A stretch of DNA of 64,000 nt from Lachnospiraceae bacterium (GCA_963594125.1 CAVBCV010000002.1:42211-106210); one strand, 5' to 3'. Numbered from the stretch's first letter, positions 34,594 to 55,509 are shown. The notes: generated from the letters alone by a model not told the origin. A program made the numbers and translations.

Positions 34594-34733
34594 TGCCGTA
34601 TCCTTTTATCTCCAGATATTATCACATTAAACTTTTTATTTTAAAAAGTCTAATACGAACACTCCAAATCCCCAACTTATCAACAAGTTAGACGACTTTT
34701 GAGTATAGCATAAAGTAAAAAGATTAATATAAA

Positions 34734-35492
34734 TTAAAGAATTTCAACTTCTGTCTGAGAATATCGGGTTACGGTAAAGCCGAGCGGGTTCATCAAACGT
34801 TTAGCCATAAACATTCGCTCAGGAATAAACACCGCGGTAAGCGATGCCGTCCAATATTTGGTAACAAGCACCATACTGCCGTTTTCAGAATTGCGAACAT
34901 CAGGCGAAAGGTCATATGTGCGGAAGTCAATTTTCCACACGCGGCTTTTTTCACCGCCGACCCGACCGATTGAAATAATTTCAGCATCGCGAACCACTCT
35001 GGTTTTTAATAAATCGCCAAGGTCTTTGAGCTGTTTGGCCTTAAATTCGGCATAAACCGACGGCGACGAGAGGTATGAGACCATACCGCCCGCATACCAC
35101 CTGCTTTGCATTTCGCGCTCGTCATTTAAGACCGTATTGCGCAAAAGTACATATTGCCGAATAAAAAGATCCATAATTTGATTGGAAGAGGGCATATCGG
35201 GAGCGATGGTTTCATAACGCACCATGGTGTCGGAACTATCTTGTTTGATAATTAAAAACGGCTCCACCATAACCTCAGGGGCAAGCTTAAACAGCACCAA
35301 CGAGGCACTGGTAAAAAAGCCCAATGACAATATGGCAAACAACATTACCAACCGCGACAACCAGCAATAATAAAGCTCTTTGGCGCTTTTTACCGCTGAT
35401 TGTCGGTCGGTGATGTAATTAACCTGCCGCGGGGCGGCGTTTGCATCGGTTATAGATAAAGTTTCGTTTCCGTTTCCAAGTTGATTTACCAT
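34734..35492 (-). CDS. virB8: VirB8-like protein (paralog b)
   Basis: Same architecture as paralog a: TM (LVMLFAILSLGFFTSASLVLF), C-terminal NPLGFTVTRYS. Clearly homologous to 33645-34391. Confidence 0.7.
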   Translation of the reverse strand: MVNQLGNGNETLSITDANAAPRQVNYITDRQSAVKSAKELYYCWLSRLVMLFAILSLGFFTSASLVLFKLAPEVMVEPFLIIKQDSSDTMVRYETIAPDMPSSNQIMDLFIRQYVLLRNTVLNDEREMQSRWYAGGMVSYLSSPSVYAEFKAKQLKDLGDLLKTRVVRDAEIISIGRVGGEKSRVWKIDFRTYDLSPDVRNSENGSMVLVTKYWTASLTAVFIPERMFMAKRLMNPLGFTVTRYSQTEVEIL

Positions 35493-39563: not shown

Positions 39564-39576
39564 TGCTTATTACTCC

Positions 39577-40824: not shown

Positions 40825-41503
40825 TGTCACCCTCCTGTGTTTTTTCTTTTTCATTTTCATAGTTTTGAATAGCCATAGTGCTCTTGTAGGCATTTATAGC
40901 GTCTTGCATACCCATAATTCTCTCCCATCTGGCGAGCGAGCGCAACTGCATAGCATTGCTGGCGTTAAACGCCTCTTCAATGGTGTTGAGCGAATAATCG
41001 GGGTCTTCTTCTTCTAACAACTCTTGCCGCAAAATCAGCGCTCTGGCGTATAACTGCGCTGCCGCAACCTGATTTTCACGGTTAATTGATTCACGCAATT
41101 TGCGCGCGACCGTGTTGTTGTGGTCTTCGCCCCAAGTGCGGTTATAGGTTGATTTTACGGTTTCAATATTTTCATCCTCGTTGGGTTTTTCATCCAAACT
41201 GTTTTCCATACCGGAGAGCACCGCGGTTTTAACAATATCTTTGGGATCAAGCTCATCAAGCTTAAAATCTTTAATATTTTGAATATCCTTTTTGGCATCG
41301 CGGAAACCCTGCTTAACCTCAGAGGAAAGATTTTTAGCCTCGGTTAAAACATCTTGAACCTGTTTTTTAACCGCTTCATATTTGATGACAAAGGCGTTAA
41401 TAGCGGCCTCTATCGCCTCAATATCAGCCTTTGCCGGCACTGCGTAAAGCACACCGGCTAAAAGCATGACTGCAAATTTTAACCGCCTATTCATTGCCTT
41501 CAT
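40811..41503 (-). CDS. secreted alpha-helical protein, VirB5/TrbJ-like by size and position
   Basis: About 230 aa. MKAMNRRLKFAVMLLAGVLYAVPAKA signal peptide. All-helical sequence. Downstream of virB4 where virB5 normally sits. Confidence 0.45.
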   Translation of the reverse strand: MKAMNRRLKFAVMLLAGVLYAVPAKADIEAIEAAINAFVIKYEAVKKQVQDVLTEAKNLSSEVKQGFRDAKKDIQNIKDFKLDELDPKDIVKTAVLSGMENSLDEKPNEDENIETVKSTYNRTWGEDHNNTVARKLRESINRENQVAAAQLYARALILRQELLEEEDPDYSLNTIEEAFNASNAMQLRSLARWERIMGMQDAINAYKSTMAIQNYENEKEKTQEGDNAEK

Positions 41504-43052
41504 CCTTATTTTCGTTTTTGTAATAATCAGGATCAAGCATTTCAATCGTGCTTACGCTTTCAGTAACCAACTGTCCGGTTAAAGATTCCATTAAGCGGAT
41601 AATTATTTCTTGGTTAATCAAGCCGACATTACCTGAAAATGAAATTTCTTCACGCTCGTTGGTTAAAGCCTCAGATTTTTTCTCAAGATCTTCATTAACC
41701 TTTAAGAAGTTAGCGGAATAGTTTTTATGCGTTAAGGCAACCGCCAAATCATTTGCGATGTGGTCATGCTTGGCGATTTTGTAAATACGGAGCCATTCCG
41801 CGGCAACTTCCGCATTGGGGTCATGCAAATCAACCACCCATTTTTTAACGCATTCCGCAACTTTTTCCTCGGAAAGTTCATCAACGTTCATATCGCATTT
41901 TTTAGCGATTTCGTCTGAGTAAATAAACTTACCGTCATCATTGGTTCCGGTTTTGAATTTAGGATTTTTCTTAACAAACTGAGCGAACGCCGCAGGTTTG
42001 GTCATCATGGCATACGAGCTGATAATGTCCTCGGTTTTATCGGCGGCGGAAGTGTTATACTTAAAGCGACGCGCGCCGCCTGAGGCGCTGTCCTCATCAA
42101 AATCAGGTTTAAGGAGCGGTCTGTCATTAAAATCGGGCATAACTCCACCGAATCCGGAATCATCGCTGCTATCAAAGTCAGGAGTTACCGGAAGTTCAGA
42201 ATCGCTCGGTTCATCGGGCAAGCTCGGAACATGCGGATTGTCAGGCTCGCTCGGGGCTGACGGAGTGGTAGGTAATTGCGGCTTATCACTGCCCGGGGTC
42301 GGCTCAGGAACATCATCAAAACCGCCGTCATAGCCGAAGTCATCATCAAAGTTTTCATCAAACTCTTCATCGCCGGTATCCCAATCTTCACTGTCGGAGC
42401 CGTTACCGGTATCAGGGCGATATGATAATGAAACATCGTCAAATTTGCCTTTAGCGGTATTATATTTTTGCAGAGCCTCAAGATATTCGTCTTCAAGCGC
42501 GGCTCTTTCCGCTTCAGAGGCGTTTTCATAACGCTGTTTTATGCTCTCATACTCTGATTTAGCCCGCTCATAGTCAGCCTTGGCGGAGTCATAAGCTTTT
42601 TGACCATCGCTGTTATACTTATCGCCGTTACCTATAATGTCTTTGGTGGTAGCGGAAAGGTTATATTTGCCAAGTTGCAAATACGGGTCTTTGATATTGT
42701 TAATAATGCTGCCGATTTCAGCCTCCCACTGAGCGCGCAATTTTGCCAAGCGCTCGGCGCGGCGTTTTTTCTTTTCAAGACGCTGACTGAGTTTTTCAGC
42801 CTTTTCTTTTTCATCAACGAATTTAGACAGAGCGCCGACATTATCGCCGATTGCCTGCTGAATTTTGCCGACAGATAAGGTTGATTTAATGGTTGAGGCG
42901 GTTGATTTTGCCTTAGTGACATAGCCGGAGATGGTGTTAAGCACCTCGGCAATATCAAAAGTCGGCCATAAAAAAGCCTGACATGGGGTGGTGTGTAAAG
43001 CAACGCATATAAACGCCATTGCGGTTACGAGTGTAAGTGTTTTCTTTTTCAT
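41487..43052 (-). CDS. secreted coiled-coil/acidic protein (521 aa)
   Basis: MKKKTLTLVTAMAFICVALHTTPCQA signal. Coiled-coil block (KEKAEKLSQRLEKKKRRAERLAKLRAQWEAE). Acidic Pro/Asp-rich region and a C-terminal globular domain. No TM. Confidence 0.55.
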   Translation of the reverse strand: MKKKTLTLVTAMAFICVALHTTPCQAFLWPTFDIAEVLNTISGYVTKAKSTASTIKSTLSVGKIQQAIGDNVGALSKFVDEKEKAEKLSQRLEKKKRRAERLAKLRAQWEAEIGSIINNIKDPYLQLGKYNLSATTKDIIGNGDKYNSDGQKAYDSAKADYERAKSEYESIKQRYENASEAERAALEDEYLEALQKYNTAKGKFDDVSLSYRPDTGNGSDSEDWDTGDEEFDENFDDDFGYDGGFDDVPEPTPGSDKPQLPTTPSAPSEPDNPHVPSLPDEPSDSELPVTPDFDSSDDSGFGGVMPDFNDRPLLKPDFDEDSASGGARRFKYNTSAADKTEDIISSYAMMTKPAAFAQFVKKNPKFKTGTNDDGKFIYSDEIAKKCDMNVDELSEEKVAECVKKWVVDLHDPNAEVAAEWLRIYKIAKHDHIANDLAVALTHKNYSANFLKVNEDLEKKSEALTNEREEISFSGNVGLINQEIIIRLMESLTGQLVTESVSTIEMLDPDYYKNENKDEGNE

Positions 43053-43132: not shown

Positions 43133-45565
43133 TTACGCCATATTTAAATATTTTGTAACAAAGTTCTCTTCTCCGTATTCTTTAATCAACTGTTCAACCA
43201 ATAATACGTTTTTATTACCGGAGTTGTACAGTTTAAGATAAGGTCCTAACGCCCCTAAGTTGACGTCTAGCACCACTGACTCATCGGTGTCCGGTCGTTT
43301 AAGCAAAATAGCGTACGGAAAATCGCGATAAGTTTTACCAAATATAAAGTCAAGCTCGCTTTGCGTAAGGTTCCAGTTGGCATAATCCTCCGGCAAAGCC
43401 TGCGCATTACGGAAAAAGATCATTGTTTTACATTGTCCGCGGATAACCTCGCCGACGCCTAATTTATCAACAATATTCGGTTGTTGGAACGCGCACAAAT
43501 ACGCCTGACGTTTTTTACGACCTTCTTGCAAACCGATGATAAAGTAATCACGGAACATCGGGTGTTTTAACATCGGCGCGGTTTCATCAATCATAATCAA
43601 TGTAGGCGCACCGGTAGCGCTGGCTTCAGTTTGAATACGGTGCATGATGTAACTGATTACCGCCGGAGCCAAGGTTTCATCTTCAAAGATGTGGGTAAAG
43701 TCAAACGCCATAAAACGCTTAGACTTTAAGTCAAGGCTATCGGTATCGGAGTTAAAAATATTGCCGTATTGGTCAGGATTTACCCAGCGATAAAGTTCGC
43801 GGCGCATGGTTCCGGTCGGTGAAAAACAGCTTTTGTAAAGGTTTTTCATAATACGTTCTTCCGGACGCAAATAGTCAAACGCGGTAGTAACGGCGCGGGC
43901 AATTTCACGTTCAGATAAGGCATCGTCCGCCATGGTGATAGACTTCATCCAACGGCGCAAAAAGGCGCGGTTGTTGGGGGTATTGTCTGTGTCAAACGGG
44001 TTTAGAGTAACGTTCTTTTCATCACCGTCAAAGCCGACATAAGCGCCGCCGATAGAACGGGTGAAAATTTTGGCACCGTTAAGGCGGTCAAAGAAGAACA
44101 CTTTTAAGTCACCATGGCGCATCGCCTGCCCTGCCAAAAAGGTAAGCAAAGTGGTTTTACCTTGACCGGTAGGACCGATAATACAGCAGTGAGCAACGGC
44201 GTATTCATCAGATGTAATATGAAATTGGAAGCGGTACGCCGAACCTGACATGGTGCGGAACACCGTGATGGCTCCCGGACCCCAGTCACTTTTGCCGAAA
44301 CCTTCTGACGGTTTGTCAAACGAGATAGCAAGCGCAACCACGCGCGATAAGTAACGATAAGTTCTGGGATAAGTGTCATAAGTCGGGAACTGGCTGAAGA
44401 AAGTTGCCTGCGTAACCCAACCCTCGCGCACCGGCGTTACGCCATAGGTGCGGCAAATACGTTGAACTTCGCTCTCGCCAAAGTCAAGCTCTTCTTTGCT
44501 GGAGCCCTTGATTAAAATACTCATTGAATATTCGGTTAAAGCCTGATAATCGGCGTCGCTATCTTCAATGGTGGAAAGAGCTTGTCCGTATTGGTTAACC
44601 ACTTCAGATGAAAAGCTGGTTAAAGTTGCCATACGCTGTTGCTGAATAAGCATCATGCGGGCTTGCGGCTTAAAGATTGGGCGCACGTTATGCAAAAGAA
44701 CCAACTCGCAGTCTATGGAAAGGAGCGAAACTATCATGCTCTCGTCCATATAGTCGCCGGTGGTGCGAATACCCATTACAATTTCATATAATTCCTTATC
44801 GCCGCTGAAAAAGCGGATAATGCCGTCTTCACGCGTAAAGTGGATATGGTCGGCGGTGAGCATTTCATTAAGCTCGGCGCCTTTGGCGTTGCGAACCTTG
44901 GGCAGCGGCCTTGAAACCGGACTGCACAAGCGGCTGAAAACATAAAACGGGCTGTCGGTTGCCGGACCGTCGGGGCTTTCAAGCATCGGGGTAACCCCAT
45001 ATTCGCCAAGGGTGGCAATCAGCGATTGGCTGGCGTAGTTTAAGTCTTTGAGCGCGTCCTTGCGGTCAATAACCGATAATATAATATAGTGTTTATTGCT
45101 ATAAACACGGCTCATATTATCCATCCAAATTTCAGAAACTTTTTCCAAAATTTCGTTGTTGAAGTTGCCCTGCTCGTTATCAAGCGCGGTGCGTTCGCGG
45201 TCAGTGATAACGCGGCAAACAATTTGCAGCTCTGAAAGGTTGTCAATCCATGATTTGCGGGCTTCCATCATGGAATACATTTTTTCCGGAGTGGCGGAGC
45301 CTAAGTCAAGCCCGGTAACACGAAACACACGAGCGTACGAGCCGTTGGTGCAACGAATGGTCATGCCGTCTGACATAATTTCAGCAAACGGCAAAAAGTC
45401 TGACACGCGCGACTCACGCGGCTGAGGCAAAACCCACGAGCCGAACTTGGACGAGAGCAAAACCGCAAACGCCGCCGCTGAGATAAAACCGACAACAGCC
45501 ACCACAACTTCAGCGTTGGTGAGGCCGGAGACAAACATATTAAAAAAATCAAAATCAGGGCTCAA
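43133..45565 (-). CDS. virB4: type IV secretion ATPase VirB4
   Basis: 810 aa. Walker A CIIGPTGQGKTTLL, Walker B LIMIDETAPML. N-terminal membrane-associated segment. Immediately follows a VirB3-like gene with a 4-codon-scale overlap. Confidence 0.9.
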   Translation of the reverse strand: MSPDFDFFNMFVSGLTNAEVVVAVVGFISAAAFAVLLSSKFGSWVLPQPRESRVSDFLPFAEIMSDGMTIRCTNGSYARVFRVTGLDLGSATPEKMYSMMEARKSWIDNLSELQIVCRVITDRERTALDNEQGNFNNEILEKVSEIWMDNMSRVYSNKHYIILSVIDRKDALKDLNYASQSLIATLGEYGVTPMLESPDGPATDSPFYVFSRLCSPVSRPLPKVRNAKGAELNEMLTADHIHFTREDGIIRFFSGDKELYEIVMGIRTTGDYMDESMIVSLLSIDCELVLLHNVRPIFKPQARMMLIQQQRMATLTSFSSEVVNQYGQALSTIEDSDADYQALTEYSMSILIKGSSKEELDFGESEVQRICRTYGVTPVREGWVTQATFFSQFPTYDTYPRTYRYLSRVVALAISFDKPSEGFGKSDWGPGAITVFRTMSGSAYRFQFHITSDEYAVAHCCIIGPTGQGKTTLLTFLAGQAMRHGDLKVFFFDRLNGAKIFTRSIGGAYVGFDGDEKNVTLNPFDTDNTPNNRAFLRRWMKSITMADDALSEREIARAVTTAFDYLRPEERIMKNLYKSCFSPTGTMRRELYRWVNPDQYGNIFNSDTDSLDLKSKRFMAFDFTHIFEDETLAPAVISYIMHRIQTEASATGAPTLIMIDETAPMLKHPMFRDYFIIGLQEGRKKRQAYLCAFQQPNIVDKLGVGEVIRGQCKTMIFFRNAQALPEDYANWNLTQSELDFIFGKTYRDFPYAILLKRPDTDESVVLDVNLGALGPYLKLYNSGNKNVLLVEQLIKEYGEENFVTKYLNMA

Positions 45566-45845
45566 ATTTATTCCCCTTTTCCGGATACAAATTTTTTGAA
45601 ACTACGTTGGTTTGCCCGAAAGCCTGAATCATTGCCGAAAGATGAGGTTCCTTAACTCCGGCAAATACAATGGCGGCATGCACCAACACAAACGTGACCA
45701 CAAAAAGCAACGGGTTAATATCTGCTACACCGATTGCCATAAACATTACCGGAAACTGAATGCCGGCATTAAGCACCACAGGCAAAACCGGCCCCCAAAA
45801 TATTTTGGGCGGCTGAGCCACTGCTTTTAATATCATATCCTGCAT
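45555..45845 (-). CDS. virB3: VirB3-like membrane protein
   Basis: 96 aa with two hydrophobic helices. PVLPVVLNAGIQ...LVHAAIVFAGVKEPHLSAMIQAF resembles the VirB3/TrbD core. Overlaps the virB4 start. Confidence 0.6.
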   Translation of the reverse strand: MQDMILKAVAQPPKIFWGPVLPVVLNAGIQFPVMFMAIGVADINPLLFVVTFVLVHAAIVFAGVKEPHLSAMIQAFGQTNVVSKNLYPEKGNKFEP

Positions 45846-45972
45846 TTTATGCTTCCTCTAATAATTTATGTTTATATTTTTAAGCGGTATTTAAGCCGCG
45901 TCAACTGCTTTTAGCAAATAATCCACTTTTTAGCAAAACAGCAGGCGGAGTTTGCAGGCTCCGCCCGTTTAA

Positions 45973-47157
45973 TTAATTGCCGAAAAAGCCATCCATACGG
46001 TCGCCGAGTTCCTCAGCTCTTTTACCGGTTTGGTAAGTTTCTCTGCCTAAAACAGCAGCGCCACCTGCCGCATCAGCTCCACCCTGAATACCGCCGGTTA
46101 CAGTACCAACCGCCGTGCCAACACCGGAGTTAGCAATGCCTGACGATCCGGCGTTAGTGCCGCTGACGCCGTCAATCACATAGCCCAAATTAGCTAAAAA
46201 GTTTTGGAAATTACCGTTAAGTTGACCGCTGCTGGTGTAAATTTGGTCAGCGCTCATCCCAACCGACGCCGCCAACGCGCCCAATTTATCTAACGCCTTG
46301 CCGTCACCGGAGATAATATCGCCGATACGCACCGCGCCGTTTTCAGTGGCTTTTTTGAGTAATTTAGCGTATTCAACCGCGTTAAGAGCCTGATTGGCAC
46401 CGGCAATACCGGCATTGGCGATGCGAATAATATCCGCCATTACCTGCGCCGGATTTTTTTGGCATACACCGTTTTGAATTTTGCCGGAACAGCATTGACG
46501 CGCGCCGTTGTTATAACGACAGCCGTTGGAATCCCAGTCGGTAACCGTAGGAGCATTGCTACTGGTCGGCGGAATTATACCGCCGCCGTTAGCGCCTTCA
46601 GCGCCGCTGCTGACGCCGGGGATAGCCGGCAGATTAAAGCCGCCGGATTGTGTGCCAGGGTCATCTTTGCCGTCAGGATCTTTATCGCCGGGGGTTTTGT
46701 CAAGCTGGTCTTGCATTTCTTGGTTAGGATCTCGGTCAGGGTTGCCGTCCGGGCATTCTTGACCTTTACAATCTTTGCCGCCGTCGTCTGTTTCCGGAAT
46801 GTCGCTGCCTTGAATTGACGAGCCGCCGCGAATAAAGTTGCCGTAGCTGAACTGAGAATCTTCAAGATTAACTCCGGCAAAATAGTTAATAAACGGCATC
46901 ATTACCGCTAATAACGACAAACCAATCATGATATAAGCAAGGTGCTTAAAGCTGATTTTGTTAAAAATCGCCAGCGTGGTGAACATAATTAAGCCGAAAC
47001 CGGCAATAACATAAACAATACGGCGAACATCTATCACCGTGGTCATCATTTTTTGCGATATTACCTGAAAGATGTTATCCGCCGCCATGGCGCTTGCCGG
47101 AAGCAGCAGCACGCCCAAAAGCAGAGTTAAAAACAAATATTTAAATTGATGTTTCAT
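45973..47157 (-). CDS. VirB2/TrbC-like pilin core with about 280-aa Gly-rich, Cys-containing C-terminal extension
   Basis: Signal peptide MKHQFKYLFLTLLLGVLLLPASAMA. Two hydrophobic helices (IVYVIAGFGLIMFTTLAIF / AYIMIGLSLLAVMMPFINYF) as in T-pilins. A long G/D/P-rich tail with CxxxxC pairs follows. Confidence 0.5.
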   Translation of the reverse strand: MKHQFKYLFLTLLLGVLLLPASAMAADNIFQVISQKMMTTVIDVRRIVYVIAGFGLIMFTTLAIFNKISFKHLAYIMIGLSLLAVMMPFINYFAGVNLEDSQFSYGNFIRGGSSIQGSDIPETDDGGKDCKGQECPDGNPDRDPNQEMQDQLDKTPGDKDPDGKDDPGTQSGGFNLPAIPGVSSGAEGANGGGIIPPTSSNAPTVTDWDSNGCRYNNGARQCCSGKIQNGVCQKNPAQVMADIIRIANAGIAGANQALNAVEYAKLLKKATENGAVRIGDIISGDGKALDKLGALAASVGMSADQIYTSSGQLNGNFQNFLANLGYVIDGVSGTNAGSSGIANSGVGTAVGTVTGGIQGGADAAGGAAVLGRETYQTGKRAEELGDRMDGFFGN

Positions 47158-47179
47158 GACCGCCTCCGTTTAAGTTAAA

Positions 47180-47530
47180 TTATTCGCCGGTTTTTAAGGT
47201 GTCGGAAATGCCGCTGACACTGATATCCGCGCCGGTGCCCGCCGCTAAATAGTTAATAATGCCGGCGGTGGCGGCTATTACTATCAGACCGATAATAATG
47301 GCGCTGAGCCACTTCCAGTTAAGGGCGCCGAAAAAGCTGCCGATGGCGATGGCGATAATACCAAAACCGGCGGCGCCGTAAATAATGCCTTTCATGCCCT
47401 CAAAAATTTCACCGCCGGTTCGGGTTAAATCTTCAAACACGGCGTAAGAATCAGTTGCGCATAAAATTGAAGAAAGCGCAAAAACCAGCAAACCAAAGCT
47501 GAGGTATTTCTTTAAATTTATAAGCAACAT
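47180..47530 (-). CDS. virB2: VirB2/TrbC-like T-pilin
   Basis: 116 aa. Signal peptide plus two TM helices (GIIYGAAGFGIIAIAIGSFFGAL / LSAIIIGLIVIAATAGIINYL). Confidence 0.6.
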   Translation of the reverse strand: MLLINLKKYLSFGLLVFALSSILCATDSYAVFEDLTRTGGEIFEGMKGIIYGAAGFGIIAIAIGSFFGALNWKWLSAIIIGLIVIAATAGIINYLAAGTGADISVSGISDTLKTGE

Positions 47531-47539
47531 TGTTTAATT

Positions 47540-47572
47540 CTCCTTAAAATAATTTAAGCGCAGGGGAAAGCG
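47540..47572 (-). terminator. possible attenuator/terminator between virB2 paralogs
   Basis: GC-rich hairpin caggggaaagc-gcga-ggctttcccc with a flanking T-run on the plus strand and an A-run on the other side. Confidence 0.3.
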
Positions 47573-47602
47573 CGAGGCTTTCCCCTTTTTTGATGGCACA
47601 AA

Positions 47603-47979
47603 TTAGAAGCCATTACCTGTTGATTGTTTGAAGGTATCATCAAATCCGGTTGAACCTTCTTGAATTTTCTTTTGACCGGTTGCGTAATCAACAATCGCAC
47701 CGGCAGCGGCAAGCACCGCCAAACCAACGGCTAAACCTGCGAACCATGCCCATTTTACTTTACCGAAAATAGCTTGGAACGCCAAGCCGACTAAACCGAA
47801 ACCGCCGACTACGAAAATAATGGTTTTAACGGCTTTGAACACGTTAAGAGCTTTATTAGTAGCAATATCCATAACCGTCGTACCACCAACAGTTTGAGCA
47901 CTTGCATCGCCGACCAAAGACATCGTAAAGACTAAGCCTAAGGCGAACAATGTGAATAAATTGTTTTTAAGAAACTTCA
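47603..47979 (-). CDS. virB2: VirB2/TrbC-like T-pilin (first gene of operon)
   Basis: Start at MKFLKNNLFTLFALGLVFTMSLVGDASA (ATG 47979, RBS AAGGAG). Two TM helices (IIFVVGGFGLVGLAFQAIF / AWFAGLAVGLAVLAAAGAIV). Confidence 0.6.
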
Positions 47980-48389
47980 TTGTTTTTCTCCTTAAATATC
48001 GTGACAAAACTTCTTATACACTTATAGAATACCAGATTTGAGAACATTTTGCCAGTTTTTTATAGTCTGCGCAATTTTTGTTAACACTTTGTTTTTAATA
48101 CAAAAACATGCCGTGTAACAAAAAATTCATATTCACCTTCGGCATTCAATACGGGCTTTAGTATATTTTTAAAAGGTAAAAAAATCTCTAATTTTTTAAA
48201 ACAGCTTTTGGTTTAAAAATTTGCAAAACGCTTGCGGCAGAAAAAATTTCCGCAACTTCATTATATTAACGCAATTTTAAGGTTATCAGTTGTATCTTTT
48301 TTATAACCGGAAGGGCGATTTGCGCCCAAATTGTATGCAAACGCATTGATTTGGCGTGATAAATTGCCGTATTAGGAGTTTGGAATTTT

Positions 48390-50177
48390 ATGCAGAAAAA
48401 AGCAGTTAAAAACTTTGTTTACAGCTTTTTATTCTCTTTACTGGCGGTTGCCGCCGTCGGTAAAGTGTTTTTCCGCGCGCCGGAAGCTCCGAAAAACCAA
48501 ACCGGAAATAAAGTTATTAAAACGCAGGATATATCGCTGTTTTCAAAGCCGAAAGACTTAACGGTTCGGCAGATTGCCGCCGCGCCCGCGGTTGACGTGA
48601 GCGCGATTGAGGCTTTAACCGCTCCCGCTCCGGCGGCGGAAATTGCCGCGCCGGAAGAGGCTTTAGAGCCAAAGCCGGAAGTTTTGGCGGAAAACATTAA
48701 TAATATTACAACAGATACTATTACCGCGGAAAGCAACATAATTACCAAGCCTGAACTTAGCACTGACCTTGCCGCCGCGCAGGAAATTGTGTTAGAGCCG
48801 GAAGAGATAGCTTCCGCGCAGGCTGCCGCGCCCGCTTATGAGCAAAGCGGTATTGTGTATGCCGACATCAGCGACACGCTGCAAGATGAAAAAATACAAA
48901 ATATTATGTTAAGCAAACCTTCTGAGCCGCTCAAAATTTTGTACGCGCCGGAAGATGAAGATATTAGCGCTGAAAATATTGTGGTGGCGGAAAATACGGC
49001 AACCGATAACGCCGCTTTAAGCGTTGCCCAGATTGAAGACGACGAAATTCCGCTGGTGGAAACATCCGGCACACTGCATAAGCAAATTGAAGTGCAAAAC
49101 TCCGCGTCAGGTTCTGAAATTGCGATGTTGGAGCCGAATATTTTGGTTAACACCATTGAGGAAGCGGACGCTCCGGAAGAAAAAACTTTAGCGGAAGCCG
49201 ACTTAAAGCAAAACGAATGGCAGCAGATGTCGGAAAAACAGCCGGAAGAAAGCCCGTGGGTGGTGGCTAAAGGCAATCGGTTTGCTAAAAACAAGGCGGT
49301 AGTGGAGCAATTTGCGCAAAGCGAACAAACTTTGGCGGAAACTCCGGCTCCGGCAGAAGAAGAGGTTGACGAATCTCAATCTGAGCCGGAAGAACAAACA
49401 AGCCTTTTGCGCCCCGCCGCGGAAGATGAAAACATCAGTTTGGCGCTTAAAGAAGAGGACAGTAACATTTCAGGCGGCGAAACCAAAGTGGCTTACCAGA
49501 TGGTGCCCAACCTTTTGATTCCGATACCGGACGATATTGCCAACGACCCGAATTTAACGCCGCAGCTCTCATATTCGCCCGATGACAAACCGGCTAAAAA
49601 AGACGAGGCTAAAGAAACCGCCGCGGCAACTCCGAACGATGAGGGCGGTTTAAATGAAGATGAAAAGAAAACCGGCTTATTTAAAAGTATAACCTCATGG
49701 TTTGCCGGTAACAAAGATAAAAGTAAAGATGAAAACCCGCAGACCGAAATCAGCCAATCGTCAGGGCAAAGCCGCAGCACTTTTGACTTTTTCGGCGTGG
49801 GAAGCAAGTTTCCGGGGCAGAGCAAACCGGCAAAAATTCTGCCGGCGGAGCTGAGACTTTCGTTTCAGCCCAACAGAGCGGAAATTTCAGGGCAGACTTT
49901 GCGCTGGATTCACGCTTTTGCCGATAACGCGCGCGACAATGACGATTTGTATATTGAAATCAGAATTGACGGCACCAGCTCATTTGCCCTGCAAAAGAAA
50001 AGGCTTAACCTGTTAAGCACTATTTTAGCAAACCGCGGAGTGGATTACAGAAAAATTAATATTGTGTTCACCTCGCGCGAGCCAAATTCATTTATTATTA
50101 GGAATATTCGGTTTAACAATAATGAAGAGGTTGTGATAAGCAAAGACAATGACAACTCTTATTACCGCCCATGGTAA
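48390..50177 (+). CDS. membrane-anchored acidic low-complexity protein with possible C-terminal OmpA/MotB-like domain
   Basis: N-terminal TM (FVYSFLFSLLAVAAVGKVFF). About 450 aa E/A/P-rich acidic region. The C-terminal approximately 110 aa (LRLSFQPNRAEISGQTLRWIHAFADNA...YIEIRIDGTSSFALQKKRLNLLSTILANRGVDYRKINI) loosely matches the OmpA-like peptidoglycan-binding pattern. Divergently transcribed from virB2. Confidence 0.45.
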   Translation: MQKKAVKNFVYSFLFSLLAVAAVGKVFFRAPEAPKNQTGNKVIKTQDISLFSKPKDLTVRQIAAAPAVDVSAIEALTAPAPAAEIAAPEEALEPKPEVLAENINNITTDTITAESNIITKPELSTDLAAAQEIVLEPEEIASAQAAAPAYEQSGIVYADISDTLQDEKIQNIMLSKPSEPLKILYAPEDEDISAENIVVAENTATDNAALSVAQIEDDEIPLVETSGTLHKQIEVQNSASGSEIAMLEPNILVNTIEEADAPEEKTLAEADLKQNEWQQMSEKQPEESPWVVAKGNRFAKNKAVVEQFAQSEQTLAETPAPAEEEVDESQSEPEEQTSLLRPAAEDENISLALKEEDSNISGGETKVAYQMVPNLLIPIPDDIANDPNLTPQLSYSPDDKPAKKDEAKETAAATPNDEGGLNEDEKKTGLFKSITSWFAGNKDKSKDENPQTEISQSSGQSRSTFDFFGVGSKFPGQSKPAKILPAELRLSFQPNRAEISGQTLRWIHAFADNARDNDDLYIEIRIDGTSSFALQKKRLNLLSTILANRGVDYRKINIVFTSREPNSFIIRNIRFNNNEEVVISKDNDNSYYRPW

Positions 50178-50264
50178 TAAGTTTTGCGCGGCGCTTGATT
50201 ATTTGAAATTCAACCTGTATGATGGAACAACAATGTAATGAAGTATGACATAGGGGAATTAAAT

Positions 50265-51020
50265 ATGAATAATAAATTACTCTTATCCGCCTGCCTGTTG
50301 TGTTTGGGTATGGCCGGCTGTGTGCGCTATAATTCAGCTTACACGGCTCAATGCAACGGTCCTGAGTGCCCGATGGACGTGTATATTGATGAAACATACG
50401 CCGCCATTCCGCCGGAGGGATATATCTGCCAAAATGCGGCAGACCCCAATATGTGTCCGAACGACCCGTATGTGAACTACACCCGCACCGCCGCCGATTT
50501 TAGAGAATACGGCGAAAGAACTCCCCGCGACAGATTAGTCTCGCAGGCCGGCGCAGGCAATAACCTCTCGGCGTCTATTCCCCCGTCAGTTGAAGATGAG
50601 GTTATTGAGTATGAAGAACAAGCAGGCGTTGCCGCTGAACCTGAAGTGCCAGAAGAAGAAAAAGTTGCTCCTGAGGACATAAAAGTTGATGAAACTATTG
50701 TTGCCGATACAGAAAATGATTCTGATGAAAATTCAGATGATGTGGAAGATCCGGTTCAGGATTGGCTTGCTGAAGAAGGTCAAAACCTTAAAGCTTTGCT
50801 TACTGAATGGAGCGAGCAGTCTGGCTGGCGCTTGGTTTGGAACACCAACCGCAATTATGTTTTGAACGCCGGAGCTATGTTTAGAGGACGCTTTGCCGAT
50901 GTCAGCTCGGCTTTAATCAGAGCTTTCGCCCGCGCCCGTCCGGCTCCGATTGCAACATTTTATAAAGGAAACCGCGTATTAGTCGTTGAAACGATGGAGG
51001 ATGAAAATGCGTATGAATAA
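50265..51020 (+). CDS. lipoprotein with TcpQ/PilL-like C-terminal domain
   Basis: MNNKLLLSACLLCLGMAGC lipobox. Acidic middle region. C-terminal LKALLTEWSEQSGWRLVWNTNRNYVLNAGAMFRGRFADVSSALIRAF resembles TcpQ/PilL-type pilotin-like domains that accompany type IVb secretins. Translationally coupled to the secretin gene. Confidence 0.5.
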   Translation: MNNKLLLSACLLCLGMAGCVRYNSAYTAQCNGPECPMDVYIDETYAAIPPEGYICQNAADPNMCPNDPYVNYTRTAADFREYGERTPRDRLVSQAGAGNNLSASIPPSVEDEVIEYEEQAGVAAEPEVPEEEKVAPEDIKVDETIVADTENDSDENSDDVEDPVQDWLAEEGQNLKALLTEWSEQSGWRLVWNTNRNYVLNAGAMFRGRFADVSSALIRAFARARPAPIATFYKGNRVLVVETMEDENAYE

Positions 51021-52626
51021 GTTTTTTAATTTAGCTCTTGGTACGGCAGTTGCCGCTTTGGTTGCGGCGTGCTCCGTTTCAACCGACCTGGACGCAACTT
51101 TGGACCGCGAAGTTGAAAACACCGTGGCTTTGAAAGAAAAAGCCAAGGCTCCGGTTACTCCGGCGGTTACTGATGTTATCAGAGTTAATGACGATATTTG
51201 GCTCGGCGACACCAGTGAAGTTGAGTATGAGGGCGATCCGGTTCCGAGTTATTTGGAAACTCCGGACGGCGTTACCTTAATCAGCAACCGCCCGATTACG
51301 TTATATGAAATCGGCGATATGCTGAACAAAATTACTTCACTTTCAGTCAGATACGATCCGACTTTGGAAGAAACTTCAAAGCAGCAGGCTGACGGCAACG
51401 CGCCTAACTTGGAATCTATCGGCGCGCAGTGGACCGACAGCACCAAAATGCTTGTTTCATACAAAGGTCCTTTGAGCGGCTTGCTTGATGAAGTTTGCAA
51501 CCGTTTCGGCATTTGGTGGAAATATGAAAAGAAACAAATTTATTTTTATAAATTTATCACCAAAACCTTTGTGTTATACACCTTGCCTACCAAACCGACC
51601 TTGTCGGTTAACGTCGGCGGCTCGTCTACCGACGGCAGCGCGGGTTCATCATCTGTTTCACTCAGCAACACCGCAAATATTGACTTGTGGGCTAATATTG
51701 AATCATCAATTAAATCAATGATTAGCAATGAGGCTCAGTTGACGATGGATCAGTCAAACGGCACCATCACTTTGACCGGCACTCCGACCGATATTCGCAA
51801 AGTGGCAAAATTTGTTAATGAACAAAACATCCGCCTTTCACGGCAAGTTGCCATCAGCGTTAAGGTTTTGCAGGTTAATGTTTCAGATTCAGACCAATAT
51901 GGTCTTAACCTTTCCGCCGCGTTTAAGGGCAACAACCACATCACTGATTTAGGTTTGGCAAGTCCGGGCGGTTTGGGCGCTGAGGTTACCAACAACCTGT
52001 CTATGACAATTTTATCCGGTCAGTGGACTTTGGCAGGCGCTATTCAAGCCCTTTCAGAGCAAGGCACCACCAACTTAATCACCAGTGGTACGGTTACAAC
52101 CTTGAACAACAAACCGGCTCCTATTCAGGTGGTTAAAACTCAGAACTATATTTCTGAAATTACTAAAACCAACTCCGGCAGCGACGGCAGCTATTATGAC
52201 CTTTCCACCACTACGGAGGAAATTGAAACCGGCTTTACGCTTGATGTTTTGCCGCGTATTTTGGAGCACGGCCGCTTGATGTTGATGTTTAACCTAACCT
52301 TGTCTGACCTTATTGAACTTGAAAGAGTTGATTTGGGCAGCGGCTCAAGCACCGAGGGCGAAACCAGCGGTCAATACATTCAAAACCCGATTATTGAAAC
52401 CCGCGGCTTTACGCAGGAAGTTGCCTTGAAATCAGGCGAAACCTTAATCTTGAGCGGTTATGAACGTGTTGAAAACACCGCTAAAAAAACCGGCGTAGGT
52501 TCGGCTGAAAACTCACTCTTGGGCGGCACCGCAACGGCTGAAAAAACTCGCAGTATCTTGGTTATTATGTTAACCCCTGTGGTTTTGGACTCCCCGCTTG
52601 TGCCCGAATCCAGAATGAAATACTAA
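51007..52626 (+). CDS. pilN: type IVb pilus secretin lipoprotein (PilN/TcpC-like)
   Basis: Lipobox ALVAAC. Secretin N-domain (ITLTGTPTDIRKVAKFVNEQNIRLSRQVAISVKVLQVNVSD) and C-terminal secretin domain (IIETRGFTQEVALKSGETLILSGYERVENT...RSILVIMLTPVVL). The exact start (51001/51007/51013) is uncertain. Confidence 0.8.
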   Translation: MRMNKFFNLALGTAVAALVAACSVSTDLDATLDREVENTVALKEKAKAPVTPAVTDVIRVNDDIWLGDTSEVEYEGDPVPSYLETPDGVTLISNRPITLYEIGDMLNKITSLSVRYDPTLEETSKQQADGNAPNLESIGAQWTDSTKMLVSYKGPLSGLLDEVCNRFGIWWKYEKKQIYFYKFITKTFVLYTLPTKPTLSVNVGGSSTDGSAGSSSVSLSNTANIDLWANIESSIKSMISNEAQLTMDQSNGTITLTGTPTDIRKVAKFVNEQNIRLSRQVAISVKVLQVNVSDSDQYGLNLSAAFKGNNHITDLGLASPGGLGAEVTNNLSMTILSGQWTLAGAIQALSEQGTTNLITSGTVTTLNNKPAPIQVVKTQNYISEITKTNSGSDGSYYDLSTTTEEIETGFTLDVLPRILEHGRLMLMFNLTLSDLIELERVDLGSGSSTEGETSGQYIQNPIIETRGFTQEVALKSGETLILSGYERVENTAKKTGVGSAENSLLGGTATAEKTRSILVIMLTPVVLDSPLVPESRMKY

Positions 52627-52644
52627 CAGTAAAGGAATAATACC

Positions 52645-53937
52645 GTGTTAGAGGATGCTAATTTAGATGAAAACTATTCCGGCGAAGTTAATTCGGCGGA
52701 ACGAGACGAAACCAAGGCTTGGGGTACCAGCTTTGATATAGGCGGCGTGACTTATGCCGCAAGCTTGTTCTGGCAGCCTCTGCAAAATCGGGACGACCCG
52801 TTTGTTGAAATTATTGAGGCTTCCGAAAACGTTTTGGAAGGCGCCGACCTCTTCTGCTTAAAACCCGGTAAATCGCCGCAATTCGGTTTGTGCGTTTCAT
52901 ATCAGGGCTATAAAAAGAAAATGTCGGCGGCGGCGGTCTCGGTTTCAACCGCGCTTTCTGACCGCTCGTCATTTTTGGCAGTGTTTAAGGTTAGCAATGG
53001 ATGGTGGTATGTCTGCGCTCGTAACGATATAATCCTGTCCGATGGCGATATGCTCTTTTTAAATGAAGAGGACGCCAAAGAACAGTTTATGTCAATGCTC
53101 GCGGTTCCGGATTGGGGTCGCAAAATCGCGCCGGAAGAGTGGGGCTTGGACGATATTGAAAATATATCGCTTGAAAGCCTGCTTGAAAAAGGCGCCGACG
53201 CAAAACTGCAAAAAATCAGAGCATTGCGCGGACCAAAACTGTTTGCCGTGGTGGCAGCAGTCGGCGTTGCCGCAATTTGGCTCGTTTCAACCTTAATCAA
53301 CTCGGTATTTTTGGCGCCGCCGAAAAAGCCGATTGTTACTCCGGTGCCCATCAGGCAAATTGAAAAAGCGCCTCCTCCGCCGGAGCCTAAGCCATGGGAA
53401 AACCTGCAAGACCCGCAAGCCGTTTTAATCGGTTGCTTAAAAGCTACGCAAGACGTGGTCGGCATTGTTACTCCGGGATGGAAAATTGAGGGTATTACCT
53501 GCACTCCGACCGGCTTGGTTACCTCATGGAAACGCGAAATCGGGCGTATTTCATGGATTGATAAAGCGCTTAATAAATCAGGCGTTACGTTTTCAAGCCG
53601 CTCTATTGCCGCTAACGGTAACAGCGTGATTGTTTCAGTGCCGATTACGGGCGTTAACACCTTTAATTCGCCACCGGAAATGAACGGTGTTGATTTGGTT
53701 AACACCTTAAACGATTTGTTCCAAGGATTGCAAATGCCTATCAGTATGAATACTGAGACTTGGACATCTCCGCAGAAAAATGTTTATCGTTCGGTAAAAT
53801 TCAGCTTTACTTCCAACCATGATCCTAAACAATGGTTAGGTTTGTTAATGAAATTTTCAGGACTTAAGATTAATACTATTAAATATGATATAAACAGCCA
53901 TAACTGGTATTACGAAGGAGCAATATATGTATTATAA
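52645..53937 (+). CDS. bitopic assembly protein, PilO2/GspL-like
   Basis: GTG start. About 190-aa cytoplasmic N-domain, single TM (LFAVVAAVGVAAIWLVSTLI), Pro-rich linker and about 200-aa periplasmic domain. The size and position match PilO of R64/PAPI-1-type clusters. Confidence 0.45.
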   Translation: MLEDANLDENYSGEVNSAERDETKAWGTSFDIGGVTYAASLFWQPLQNRDDPFVEIIEASENVLEGADLFCLKPGKSPQFGLCVSYQGYKKKMSAAAVSVSTALSDRSSFLAVFKVSNGWWYVCARNDIILSDGDMLFLNEEDAKEQFMSMLAVPDWGRKIAPEEWGLDDIENISLESLLEKGADAKLQKIRALRGPKLFAVVAAVGVAAIWLVSTLINSVFLAPPKKPIVTPVPIRQIEKAPPPPEPKPWENLQDPQAVLIGCLKATQDVVGIVTPGWKIEGITCTPTGLVTSWKREIGRISWIDKALNKSGVTFSSRSIAANGNSVIVSVPITGVNTFNSPPEMNGVDLVNTLNDLFQGLQMPISMNTETWTSPQKNVYRSVKFSFTSNHDPKQWLGLLMKFSGLKINTIKYDINSHNWYYEGAIYVL

Positions 53938-55495: not shown

Positions 55496-55509
55496 TAAGG
55501 GTACGCTCA

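What the first reader, a model, noticed from the sequence alone, without database searches (positions are those of the whole stretch)
45973..48007. Three VirB2-like pilin paralogs, one with a 280-aa Gly-rich cysteine-containing extension
47603-47979 and 47180-47530 are canonical about 120-aa T-pilin precursors (signal peptide plus two hydrophobic helices). 45973-47157 begins the same way but continues into a long G/D/P-rich tail with CKGQEC and CRYNNGARQCCSGKIQNGVCQ motifs. Multiple virB2 copies are typical of Anaplasmataceae. A pilin core fused to a large extracellular tail is not typical. A hairpin between the first and second paralog could set differential expression of the major pilin.
Basis: partly seen in the sequence, partly recalled or inferred. 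Interest (0 to 1): 0.5.

Follow-up and report, generated by a model that had tools for sequence, protein, structure and literature searches.

The report
T4SS pilin paralog with long tail
A chromosomal type IV secretion operon of an uncultured gut alphaproteobacterium starts with three related pilin genes, and the third is a real, conserved gene that joins a normal pilin core to a fast-evolving tail of about 300 residues with no known relatives, an arrangement not described for this pilin family.

Summary
Three minus-strand ORFs (P1 47603-47980, P2 47180-47530, P3 45973-47157) open a full T4SS operon (VirB3-like, VirB4, VirB8 x2, VirB9, VirB10, VirB11). P1 and P2 pass Pfam's TrbC/VirB2 threshold. 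P3's first 95 residues are a paralogous pilin core (profile-profile 99.6%, E 1e-23 against P1).

The 394-aa ORF is not an assembly artefact. The same core-plus-tail protein occurs in about 170 database proteins and about 40 species of uncultured gut and rumen Alphaproteobacteria, always in the order P1-P2-P3-virB3-virB4.

The tail comprises:
- a conserved CxxxxCP loop
- a length-variable low-complexity linker (omega 0.5-0.7)
- a 4-Cys beta mini-domain
- a roughly 160-aa probably helical domain (omega about 0.2)

The tail has no homolog outside this family, no Pfam domain and no fold match.

A stable hairpin directly after P1 is conserved as a structure across lineages, which is consistent with P1 being the major pilin. 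A second hairpin follows P3.

Best reading (about 0.4): P3 is a low-copy or tip pilus subunit displaying a variable binding module. Main rivals are an inner-membrane-anchored periplasmic subunit and a processed pro-pilin. I rate it a new variant of a known kind.

The parts
48260..48289 (-). Promoter-like site upstream of P1 (CTGATA-18-TATAAT), in the divergent intergenic region 48008-48389
   Evidence: Consensus scan, 10 of 12 matches. Weak evidence only: the number of such sites in the region is close to the shuffle expectation.
47603..47980 (-). P1: canonical TrbC/VirB2-family pilin precursor (125 aa), the probable major pilin
   Evidence: PF04956 at 32.5 bits, above GA 27.9. Family of 950 proteins; the 120 best listed are 112-134 aa, nearly all carry PF04956, and some are named TrbC/VirB2 pilin by NCBI or JGI. 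AAGGAG Shine-Dalgarno sequence before the ATG.
47562..47586 (-). GC-rich hairpin directly after the P1 stop codon; a candidate attenuator or 3' stabiliser of P1 mRNA
   Evidence: 10-bp stem, region MFE -21.2 kcal/mol, z -2.8. Structure conserved with different stem sequences in orthologous loci: median MFE -21.9 after P1 against -6.0 after P2, and 26 of 36 loci at p <= 0.05. No U-tract on the mRNA strand.
47180..47530 (-). P2: second canonical TrbC/VirB2-family pilin precursor (116 aa)
   Evidence: PF04956 at 28.2 bits, above GA 27.9. 32% identical to P1, E 5e-14. Conserved in all loci examined.
45973..47157 (-). P3: 394-aa VirB2-core protein with a long C-terminal tail (whole gene including stop)
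   Evidence: Single ORF with a GGAGG Shine-Dalgarno sequence, 22 nt after the P2 stop. Full-length family of 78-170 proteins. The slot is conserved in about 40 species.
47083..47157 (-). P3 residues 1-25: signal peptide ending in A-M-A
   Evidence: Hydrophobic segment 5-27. P20, A25 and A26 are invariant or nearly so.
46873..47082 (-). P3 residues 26-95: pilin core, two helices joined by the invariant loop N66-K67-I68-S69-x-K71-H72
   Evidence: hhalign against the P1 family: 99.6%, E 1e-23. 25 invariant columns among 85 sequences. omega 0.04-0.05. AF2 helices 29-65 and 70-94.
46750..46872 (-). P3 residues 96-136: conserved post-helix segment (YGNFI...GSD) and the CxxxxCP disulfide-loop motif
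   Evidence: Y105, G117, S118, C130, C135 and P136 are at least 90% conserved or invariant. omega about 0.26.
46543..46749 (-). P3 residues 137-205: acidic G/D/P/N-rich low-complexity linker of variable length
   Evidence: Composition G 17%, D 14%, P 11%. omega 0.5-0.7. Indel hotspot among close variants. pLDDT below 50.
46453..46542 (-). P3 residues 206-235: four-Cys beta mini-domain (WDSNGCR..CC.GK..NG.C)
   Evidence: pLDDT 75-86 with four short strands in both AF2 runs. omega 0.15-0.26. Present in most but not all family members.
45976..46452 (-). P3 residues 236-394: A/G/N-rich C-terminal domain, probably helical, with a GDIISGDG motif and a (F/W)FG(N/G)(K) end
   Evidence: Helices predicted at low confidence. 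Only generic coiled-coil or helical-bundle PDB matches, E about 1e-4. omega about 0.2. C-terminal motif counts.
45942..45967 (-). Terminator-like hairpin just after the P3 stop codon, before virB3
   Evidence: 9-bp stem with 7 GC pairs, followed by CTGTTTTGCT on the minus strand. A hairpin occupies the same position in many orthologous loci, several with a T-run.
45555..45845 (-). VirB3-like small membrane protein (96 aa), overlapping the virB4 start
   Evidence: Assigned from size, hydrophobic segments and its position directly before virB4. No Pfam hit. 58-99% identical across loci.
43133..45565 (-). VirB4 ATPase (810 aa), which anchors the locus as a T4SS
   Evidence: TIGR00929 VirB4_CagE E 1.7e-111 and PF03135.

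Best explanation
P3 is a genuine single gene for a VirB2-family pilin-domain protein.

After Sec export and signal-peptide cleavage, its two hydrophobic helices would sit in the inner membrane like any VirB2 pilin, with the basic loop facing the cytoplasm. The C-terminal tail of about 300 residues would then lie in the periplasm, where its six cysteines can form disulfides.

I propose that the pilin core lets the T4SS machinery extract P3 and build it into the pilus made mainly of P1. It would be present in low copy number, most plausibly in the first (distal) layer or sparsely along the shaft. The C-terminal end of a VirB2-type pilin lies on the outer pilus surface. The flexible linker would therefore hold the Cys mini-domain and the helical domain away from the fibre, as a lineage-variable binding module for a host, mucus or partner-cell ligand.

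Gene order and RNA structure fit a stoichiometry gradient: promoter, P1, conserved hairpin, P2, P3, second hairpin, virB3 onward.

Shown here: paralogy, conservation of the fusion, domain layout, selection pattern and conserved hairpins.
Inferred: membrane topology, incorporation into a pilus, surface display and binding function.
For: Real, conserved fusion: 78-170 full-length homologs and about 40 species share the P1-P2-P3-virB3-virB4 order.

Pilin core:
- The core aligns with P1 without gaps through both helices and the loop, which is compatible with quasi-equivalent packing.
- It is under very strong constraint, omega 0.04-0.05.
- One lineage (L042) keeps a short 144-aa version of the P3-type core, so the core works as a pilin-sized protein by itself.

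Tail features typical of exported, exposed modules:
- paired cysteines
- a low-complexity linker with indel variation between close strains
- the fastest divergence in the locus: tail 25-35% identity where VirB4 is 81-87% and the cores are 60-75%
- purifying selection on its folded parts, omega about 0.2

Expression layout: a structurally conserved hairpin after P1 only, plus a terminator-like hairpin after P3. This fits major-pilin and minor-pilin stoichiometry.

Literature:
- The C-terminal residue of a cyclic conjugative pilin is exposed on the pilus surface (PMC13434634, read).
- Variable VirB2 C-terminal extensions in X-T4SSs have been proposed to decorate the pilus (PMC6536674).
- No recognisable VirB5 tip protein was found by Pfam in the operon.
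Against: - There is no direct evidence that this T4SS makes a pilus or that P3 enters one.
- A 30-kDa tail on a pilin is sterically awkward and has no experimental precedent.
- The tail fold is unknown: AF2 mean pLDDT is 47-54 and the C-terminal domain scores 30-67. No adhesin or lectin domain was detected and the Foldseek best E was 0.9.
- G/P/D-rich linkers are also typical of periplasm-spanning proteins such as TonB or VirB10 (my own knowledge).
- Fast divergence also occurs in periplasmic T4SS parts.
- Secreted helical ORFs downstream of virB4 (244 aa and 438 aa) could still be divergent VirB5-like tip proteins.
Confidence: 0.4

Rival explanations
1. P3 is an inner-membrane-anchored structural or assembly subunit of the T4SS that never leaves the cell envelope. 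Its pilin-like helices would dock at the pilin or VirB6-type site of the inner-membrane complex. Its tail would span the periplasm through the flexible linker to contact the stalk, the outer-membrane core (VirB9/VirB10) or peptidoglycan. It might compensate for the missing polytopic VirB6 or for VirB7.
For: - The P3 core is as constrained as VirB3 and VirB4 (omega 0.04-0.05 against 0.05-0.09), and more constrained than whole P1 or P2 at 0.12-0.24.
- No polytopic VirB6-like ORF lies between virB4 and virB8, and no VirB7 was recognised.
- The linker composition resembles periplasm-spanning spacers (my own knowledge of TonB and VirB10).
- The other subunits of this system are also heavily elaborated: VirB9 with SPOR, VirB10 with beta-flower arrays.
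Against: - The tail diverges far faster than any other machine part.
- Linker length varies between near-identical strains, which is odd for a part with fixed structural partners.
- Some members lack the Cys mini-domain, and one lineage lacks the tail altogether while keeping the rest of the locus.
- VirB6 may simply be encoded elsewhere in the genome.
Confidence: 0.3
2. P3 is a pro-protein. The tail would be cleaved off near the conserved segment after helix 2, as the C-terminal 27+4 residues of RP4 TrbC are. That would give a normal-sized, possibly cyclic, third pilin plus a free periplasmic or secreted tail protein with its own function.
For: - C-terminal processing of conjugative pilins is established for RP4 TrbC and R27 TrhA (PMC13434634) and was raised for extended X-T4SS VirB2 (PMC6536674).
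- The segment just after helix 2 (YGNFI..GSD, CxxxxCP) is the best-conserved part of the tail and could be a recognition site.
- P1 and P2 carry a short conserved motif at the equivalent place, G(F/I)xDT(F/L).
Against: - No TraF or signal-peptidase-like (S26) protein was detected among the operon ORFs scanned.
- A disposable pro-region of 270 residues with two folded modules under purifying selection is costly.
- The covalent link is kept in about 170 proteins. No naturally split core-plus-tail gene pair was found, and the one apparent split (L040) is a frameshift.
Confidence: 0.15
3. P3 is a decaying or neutral duplicate. On this view the pilin paralog acquired junk low-complexity sequence by read-through and has no specific role.
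For: - The linker is low-complexity with omega 0.5-0.7.
- AF2 confidence is low over much of the tail.
- One MAG carries a frameshifted copy.
Against: - The ORF stays open in about 40 species whose VirB4 proteins are down to about 73% identical to the window's.
- The Cys mini-domain and C-terminal domain have omega 0.15-0.26, and the core 0.04.
- Conserved motifs (CxxxxCP, GDIISGDG, the C-terminal FFG) persist down to 30% identity.
Confidence: 0.03
4. The 394-aa ORF is an assembly or annotation artefact that joins a pilin gene to an unrelated gene.
For: None found. The only reason to suspect it is the unusual architecture.
Against: - The same architecture appears at about 100% coverage in independent assemblies from NCBI, ENA, JGI and Logan and in 40 GTDB species representatives.
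- The tail never occurs without the core among 1.8 billion representatives.
Confidence: 0.01

Closest known systems
TrbC/VirB2 pilins of P-type/VirB-type T4SSs (Pfam PF04956; e.g. A. tumefaciens VirB2, RP4 TrbC)
   Same: - Signal peptide, two hydrophobic helices and a short basic loop.
- Gene placed directly before virB3-virB4.
- P1 and P2 are ordinary members, and the P3 core is their paralog.
   Different: - P3 is three times longer, with a C-terminal tail of about 300 aa that has its own folded modules.
- The window's P3 scores below the Pfam gathering threshold (18.5 against 27.9 bits).
- Cyclisation and processing are unknown, and no TraF-like peptidase was seen in the operon.
VirB2 of bacteria-killing X-T4SSs (Xanthomonadales), with variable C-terminal extensions (PMC6536674)
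   Same: A VirB2 core followed by a highly variable C-terminal extension. The same two hypotheses apply: decoration of the pilus surface, or removal by processing.
   Different: - The review attributes the larger size of X-T4SS VirB2 to these extensions but describes no folded domains or cysteine motifs in them. That they are only tens of residues long is my recollection, not something I checked.
- P3's tail is about 300 aa with Cys modules and a helical domain.
- P3 coexists with two canonical pilins in the same operon.
Multi-copy VirB2 systems: Bartonella Trw (trwL/trwJ arrays), Anaplasmataceae virB2 paralogs, the Patescibacteria VirB2-like pilin array (PMC12857230, PMC3556328)
   Same: Several sequence-divergent VirB2 paralogs in tandem, in a chromosomal, apparently non-conjugative T4SS of a host-associated bacterium. 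These are proposed to give variable surface structures.
   Different: Those paralogs are all pilin-sized. Here the paralogs are three fixed, orthologous slots conserved across about 40 species, and one of them carries a large extra module.
VirB5/TrbJ pilus-tip proteins (e.g. pKM101 TraC, R388 TrwJ)
   Same: The role proposed for P3 is low-copy, distal, host- or target-contacting and fast-evolving. The tail's C-terminal domain is probably helical, as VirB5 is.
   Different: - No sequence or profile similarity was found: no Pfam hit and no VirB5/TraC among the PDB profile matches.
- VirB5 has no VirB2-like membrane core.
- The tail is not homologous to the secreted helical ORFs downstream of virB4.
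Two-domain tip adhesins of chaperone-usher pili (FimH, PapG: pilin domain plus receptor-binding domain)
   Same: The logic of the architecture is shared: a polymerisation-competent pilin module fused to a variable binding module and made in low amounts relative to the major subunit. This rests on my own knowledge and is an analogy only.
   Different: The fold and assembly pathway are unrelated. In FimH the binding domain is N-terminal, whereas in P3 it is C-terminal. No binding activity is known for P3.

Membership tests
TrbC/VirB2 pilin family (PF04956) | Match to the family HMM at or above the curated threshold | tested here: inconclusive
   P1 scores 32.5 and P2 28.2 bits against GA 27.9, so both are met. 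The window's P3 scores 18.5 bits, E 0.0024, below GA. 43 of 48 P3-family members hit at E <= 0.01, and one long member (P0130, 619 aa) scores 30.2 bits, above GA.
TrbC/VirB2 pilin family (PF04956) | Homology of the core to bona fide family members | tested here: met
   P3 core family against P1 family: hhalign 99.6%, E 1.1e-23, 89 columns, and 98.4%, E 7e-15. BLASTP E 1e-8 and 4e-7.
TrbC/VirB2 pilin family (PF04956) | Cleavable signal peptide followed by two hydrophobic helices joined by a short positively charged loop | tested here: met
   Hydropathy segments and AxA-type sites in P1, P2 and P3. AF2 helices 29-65 and 70-94 with the loop NKISFKH. The loop is invariant in 85 sequences. Actual cleavage was not tested.
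TrbC/VirB2 pilin family (PF04956) | Gene located with virB3-virB4 in a T4SS operon | tested here: met
   The order P1-P2-P3-VirB3-like-VirB4 is found in the window and in 40 of 42 related loci.
TrbC/VirB2 pilin family (PF04956) | Small precursor of about 100-150 aa | tested here: not met
   P3 is 394 aa. Family tails are 133-523 aa after the core, median 286. P1 and P2 meet this feature (125 and 116 aa).
TrbC/VirB2 pilin family (PF04956) | Polymerises into a T4SS pilus, with maturation by cleavage or cyclisation | not testable with these tools
   Needs purification of surface filaments, mass spectrometry or cryo-EM from an uncultured organism.
Solved conjugative/T4SS pilins (PDB) | Detectable sequence similarity to an experimentally solved pilin | tested here: not met
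   Neither the P1-family profile nor the P3-family profile (best 60 of 90 matches shown) matched a solved pilin. Foldseek with the low-confidence model gave nothing, best E 0.9.
RP4-type cyclic pilin maturation | TraF-like (signal-peptidase S26-type) maturation peptidase encoded with the T4SS | tested here: not met
   No such Pfam hit among the operon ORFs scanned. The rest of the genome was not available.
VirB5/TrbJ tip protein | Sequence or profile similarity of the P3 tail to VirB5-family proteins | tested here: not met
   No Pfam hit for the tail. The PDB profile search returned only generic helical bundles. The tail is not related to neighbouring secreted helical ORFs.
Rho-independent (intrinsic) terminator | GC-rich stem-loop immediately followed by a U-tract on the transcript | tested here: inconclusive
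   P1-P2 hairpin: the stem is met (10 bp) but the T-run is on the opposite strand, and on the mRNA the stem is preceded by A6. The post-P3 hairpin at 45967-45942 has a partial T-rich tail, CTGTTTTGCT. Structural conservation is shown. No transcript data were available.

The most novel reading that the evidence does not exclude
P3 is a new class of T4SS pilus subunit: a 'tip pilin' or initiator pilin. Its VirB2-like core would form the first pentameric layer of the fibre, and its tail would form the distal adhesive cap. In that role it would take over the job of VirB5 (none is recognisable in this operon), in the manner of a FimH-style two-domain adhesin. It would let reduced-genome gut Alphaproteobacteria attach to host mucosa or to partner cells through a rapidly diversifying, recombining binding module.
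Probability: 0.25. Interest if true: 0.75.

Novelty: new variant of a known kind. Interest (0 to 1): 0.5.

Why it matters
VirB2 pilins are regarded as minimal subunits of about 7-10 kDa whose tight helical packing leaves little room for extra domains. Target recognition is assigned to separate proteins such as VirB5 or CagL.

A pilin core permanently fused to a disulfide-bearing, fast-evolving module of about 30 kDa suggests a different way to put a binding or structural module on, or under, a T4SS fibre. This fusion is conserved across a whole lineage of uncultured human and animal gut Alphaproteobacteria, alongside two ordinary pilins.

If the tail is displayed, it is the likely determinant of what these poorly known gut bacteria attach to. 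It would also be a natural example of large-domain display on a conjugative-type pilus. If instead it is periplasmic, it points to an unrecognised T4SS subunit in a system that lacks an obvious VirB6.

Either outcome is testable by heterologous expression, and each would broaden the known range of T4SS architectures.

Tried and rejected
- **Tail homologs outside the family.** A phmmer search of the tail alone against 1.84 billion representatives gave only 7 hits, all with the same architecture.
- **Known domains in the tail.** Pfam and NCBIfam on the window protein, on 48 family members and on ten long-tailed members gave nothing beyond TrbC and low-complexity noise (collagen-like, extensin-like).
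- **Solved-structure relatives.** The profile search against PDB sequences gave only generic coiled coils and helical bundles.
- **Structure prediction.** Two AF2 runs (48 and 85 sequences) gave mean pLDDT 47 and 54. Foldseek against the PDB gave nothing, best E 0.9. I ran no further search on a low-confidence model.
- **VirB2-VirB5 fusion.** The tail is not related to the secreted helical ORFs after virB4, to the 595-aa divergent ORF, or to the extra ORF after the short P3 in L042 (hhalign below 1%). Those ORFs have no PDB sequence matches.
- **Plasmid origin.** tblastn of P3 against 72,556 plasmids gave no match. The window is chromosomal, flanked by housekeeping genes.
- **Natural split genes.** L040 is a frameshift of an otherwise intact gene. 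L034's long gap is non-coding.
- **Hevein- or knottin-like reading of the Cys mini-domain.** I considered this from memory and dropped it, because there is no Pfam hit and the aromatic residues such domains use are absent.
- **Exact look-up of the window protein's contig.** This failed: the protein is not on record.
- **Literature searches.** I found no paper on this clade's T4SS or on large VirB2 fusions.
Full report
**What is there**

The minus strand of the window carries three consecutive ORFs:
- P1, 47603-47980 (125 aa from the ATG)
- P2, 47180-47530 (116 aa)
- P3, 45973-47157 (394 aa)

Each ORF has a Shine-Dalgarno sequence a few bases before its ATG: AAGGAG for P1 and P2, and GGAGG for P3 (sequence).

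The remaining operon genes follow downstream on the same strand:
- a 96-aa VirB3-like membrane protein and VirB4 (TIGR00929, E 1.7e-111)
- four ORFs without family hits (521, 244, 438 and 1352 aa)
- two VirB8 paralogs
- VirB9 with a SPOR domain
- a 1371-aa beta-flower repeat protein
- a 1435-aa VirB10 with beta-flower repeats
- VirB11

A type IVb pilus locus lies divergently on the other side. The rest of the window holds housekeeping genes (cdsA, uppS, frr, pyrH, plsY, dprA, topA, mlaA/C, gpsA). It holds no relaxase or coupling protein. This is therefore a chromosomal T4SS.

**Are they VirB2 paralogs?**

P1 and P2 pass Pfam's curated threshold for TrbC/VirB2 (32.5 and 28.2 bits against 27.9). 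P3 hits the same model with residues 2-83 but below threshold (18.5 bits, E 0.0024).

Pairwise BLASTP links all three cores:
- P1/P2: 32% identity, E 5e-14
- P1/P3: 26% over 73 ungapped residues, E 1e-8
- P2/P3: 37%, E 4e-7

I built family profiles from orthologs in 33-41 loci. They give hhalign probabilities of 99.6% (P1 vs P3 core, E 1.1e-23), 98.7% (P1 vs P2) and 97.1% (P2 vs P3). The tool's own hhalign run gives 98.4%, E 7e-15.

All three have a signal-like N-terminus ending in an AxA-type site, and two hydrophobic helices around a short Lys-containing loop. AF2 models the P3 core as two long helices, 29-65 and 70-94.

P1's family has 950 members. The 120 best listed are 112-134 aa, nearly all carry PF04956, and some are named TrbC/VirB2 pilin by NCBI or JGI.

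Neither family matches solved pilins at sequence level. Membership therefore rests on Pfam, architecture, context and paralogy.

**Is the 394-aa ORF real?**

Yes.
- A sequence search found 78 homologs, most covering about 100% of the query down to 33% identity.
- A profile search raised this to 170, with lengths up to about 626 aa. NCBI names one of them 'TrbC/VirB2 family protein'.
- A scan of GTDB species representatives found 40 loci. All are MAGs titled uncultured Alphaproteobacteria or 'Azospirillum sp.', from human gut, rumen, rabbit, mouse and other animal samples (a named cluster member).
- In 40 of 42 fetched loci the order is P1-P2-P3, followed by virB3-virB4 wherever the contig continues.
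- The P3 slot holds an ORF of 316-645 aa, with two exceptions. L040 is a frameshifted copy, since the tail continues in an overlapping frame. L042 has a short 144-aa P3-type pilin.
- The tail alone, searched against 1.84 billion representative proteins, finds only 7 proteins, all with this same architecture.

**Anatomy of P3**

| Residues | Feature | Evidence |
|---|---|---|
| 1-25 | Signal peptide | |
| 26-95 | Pilin core with 25 invariant positions among 85 sequences, including G53-F-G-L56 and the loop N66-K-I-S-x-K-H72 | |
| 96-136 | Conserved post-helix segment and a nearly invariant C130-x4-C135-P136 motif | |
| 137-205 | G/D/P/N-rich low-complexity linker; the main site of indels among near-identical strain variants | |
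| 206-235 | Four-Cys mini-domain, the only tail part predicted with confidence (pLDDT 75-86, four short strands) | |
| 236-394 | A/G/N-rich region modelled as helices only with the deeper alignment and at low confidence; contains a GDIISGDG motif and commonly ends in (F/W)FG(N/G)(K) | |

Across 125 family members the tail is 133-523 aa (median 286). Cys counts are 6 (82 members), 4 (23), 2 (25) or 0 (5).

No Pfam or NCBIfam domain, PDB sequence relative or Foldseek match explains the tail.

**Selection**

I computed Nei-Gojobori estimates against four related loci.

| Region | omega |
|---|---|
| Mature P3 core | 0.04-0.05 |
| VirB3, VirB4 | 0.05-0.09 |
| P1 | 0.17-0.21 |
| P2 | 0.12-0.24 |
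| P3 Cys mini-domain | 0.15-0.26 |
| P3 C-terminal domain | about 0.2 |
| P3 linker | 0.5-0.7 |

At protein level, where VirB4 is 81-87% identical, the cores are 60-75% and the tail only 25-35%. The tail is therefore functional but is the fastest-evolving part of the locus.

dS at P3 also exceeds that of its flanks in the L001 and L006 comparisons. Close variants show mosaic C-terminal segments. Both hint at allele exchange, but I did not test this formally.

**The hairpins**

It has a 10-bp GC-rich stem, and the 72-nt intergenic RNA folds at -21.2 kcal/mol (z -2.8). Its T-run is on the plus strand. On the mRNA the stem is preceded by A6 and not followed directly by Us, so it is not a canonical intrinsic terminator.

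The comparative evidence is stronger. The 60 nt after the P1 stop fold with a median of -21.9 kcal/mol across 36 distinct loci, against -6.0 after P2. They beat shuffles at p <= 0.05 in 26 loci, with clearly different stem sequences.

A second hairpin, terminator-like on the correct strand, follows P3 at 45967-45942. It recurs in many loci, several with a T-run.

The layout is promoter region, P1, hairpin, P2-P3, hairpin, virB3 onward. This is what would be expected if P1 is the abundant major pilin and P2 and P3 are made in smaller amounts. It resembles fimbrial operons, a comparison that rests on my own knowledge. No transcript data were available.

**Mechanism**

By the standard VirB2 topology, the loop is cytoplasmic and both termini are periplasmic. 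The tail would then be periplasmic in the membrane-inserted state, which is consistent with its paired cysteines.

In assembled conjugative pili the C-terminal residue lies on the outer surface (PMC13434634). A tail attached there would project outward.

I therefore favour P3 as a low-copy or distal pilus subunit that displays a variable binding module (confidence about 0.4). For comparison, X-T4SS VirB2 extensions were proposed either to decorate the pilus or to be processed off (PMC6536674).

The rivals are:
- an envelope-resident subunit whose tail spans the periplasm (about 0.3). This is favoured by the extreme core constraint and by the absence of any polytopic VirB6-like ORF in the operon.
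- a pro-pilin whose tail is removed, as in RP4 TrbC (about 0.15). This is weakened by the lack of a TraF-like peptidase and by the cost and conservation of the tail.
- decay (about 0.03) or artefact (about 0.01), both effectively excluded.

**Comparison and novelty**

Multi-copy VirB2 genes are known in Anaplasmataceae, Bartonella Trw and Patescibacteria (PMC3556328; PMC12857230), but those paralogs are pilin-sized. The 2025 T4SS nomenclature review and my literature searches mention no VirB2 with a large folded extension.

The proteins do exist in databases, labelled as hypothetical or generically as TrbC/VirB2 family. This is thus an undescribed variant of a known kind, not a new kind of system.

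The host lineage is uncultured. A paper on reduced-genome, possibly partner-dependent gut Alphaproteobacteria (order Rs-D84, PMC12306168) may be relevant, but I did not establish that the window belongs to that order.

Noticed in passing
window 35505-43052 (minus strand): None of the four ORFs between virB4 and virB8 (521, 244, 438 and 1352 aa) has more than one hydrophobic segment, and none has a Pfam or PDB sequence match. The operon therefore has no recognisable polytopic VirB6/TrbL or VirB5. The 244-aa and 438-aa ORFs are signal-peptide-bearing, charged and helical-looking, so they are possible divergent VirB5/TrbJ analogues.
   Followed up: partly
window 23564-31937 (minus strand): VirB10 is 1435 aa, with a TrbI domain preceded by arrays of beta-flower repeats (PF21785/PF21784) and DUF3659. 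The overlapping upstream 1371-aa ORF consists almost entirely of the same repeats. This is an unusually elaborate outer part for a T4SS.
   Followed up: no
window 31950-35492 (minus strand): VirB9 (558 aa) carries a C-terminal SPOR peptidoglycan-binding domain. There are two tandem VirB8 paralogs (252 and 248 aa).
   Followed up: no
window 48390-58307 (plus strand); also L001 1-8792: A type IVb pilus locus (TcpQ-like, secretin, PilO-like, T2SSE ATPase, T2SSF platform) sits divergently next to the T4SS pilin genes. It is preceded by a 595-aa acidic low-complexity ORF with no family hit. The adjacency is conserved in a relative whose P3 is 62% identical.
   Followed up: partly
window 8000-12000: A low-GC stretch (0.35-0.38 against about 0.44 elsewhere) carries a zeta-toxin family gene (8481-9437) and a RhuM virulence-family gene (10291-11280). 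It looks like a small inserted island among housekeeping genes.
   Followed up: no
L003 4779-5545: One close relative (human gut MAG MGYG-HGUT-00610) has two tandem P1 copies, 84% and 82% identical to the window's P1. That gives it four pilin-like genes before virB3.
   Followed up: no
L042 6657-7556: In a yak-rumen MAG the third paralog is a short 144-aa pilin with a P3-type core and no long tail. It is followed by a separate 149-aa secreted charged ORF that is not homologous to the P3 tail. This is either the ancestral state or a tail loss.
   Followed up: partly
window 45973-47157 compared with L001 and L006: Synonymous divergence at P3 (dS 1.0-1.5) is well above that of the flanking P2 (0.41), virB3 (0.32) and virB4 (0.68). 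Close strain variants show mosaic combinations of C-terminal segments. Both suggest recombinational exchange of P3 alleles.
   Followed up: partly
hit table (P0004-P0035): Many independent assemblies carrying P3 homologs have their longest contigs at about 57.0-57.8 kb. This suggests a recurrent assembly break, probably a repeat, at fixed positions around this locus.
   Followed up: no
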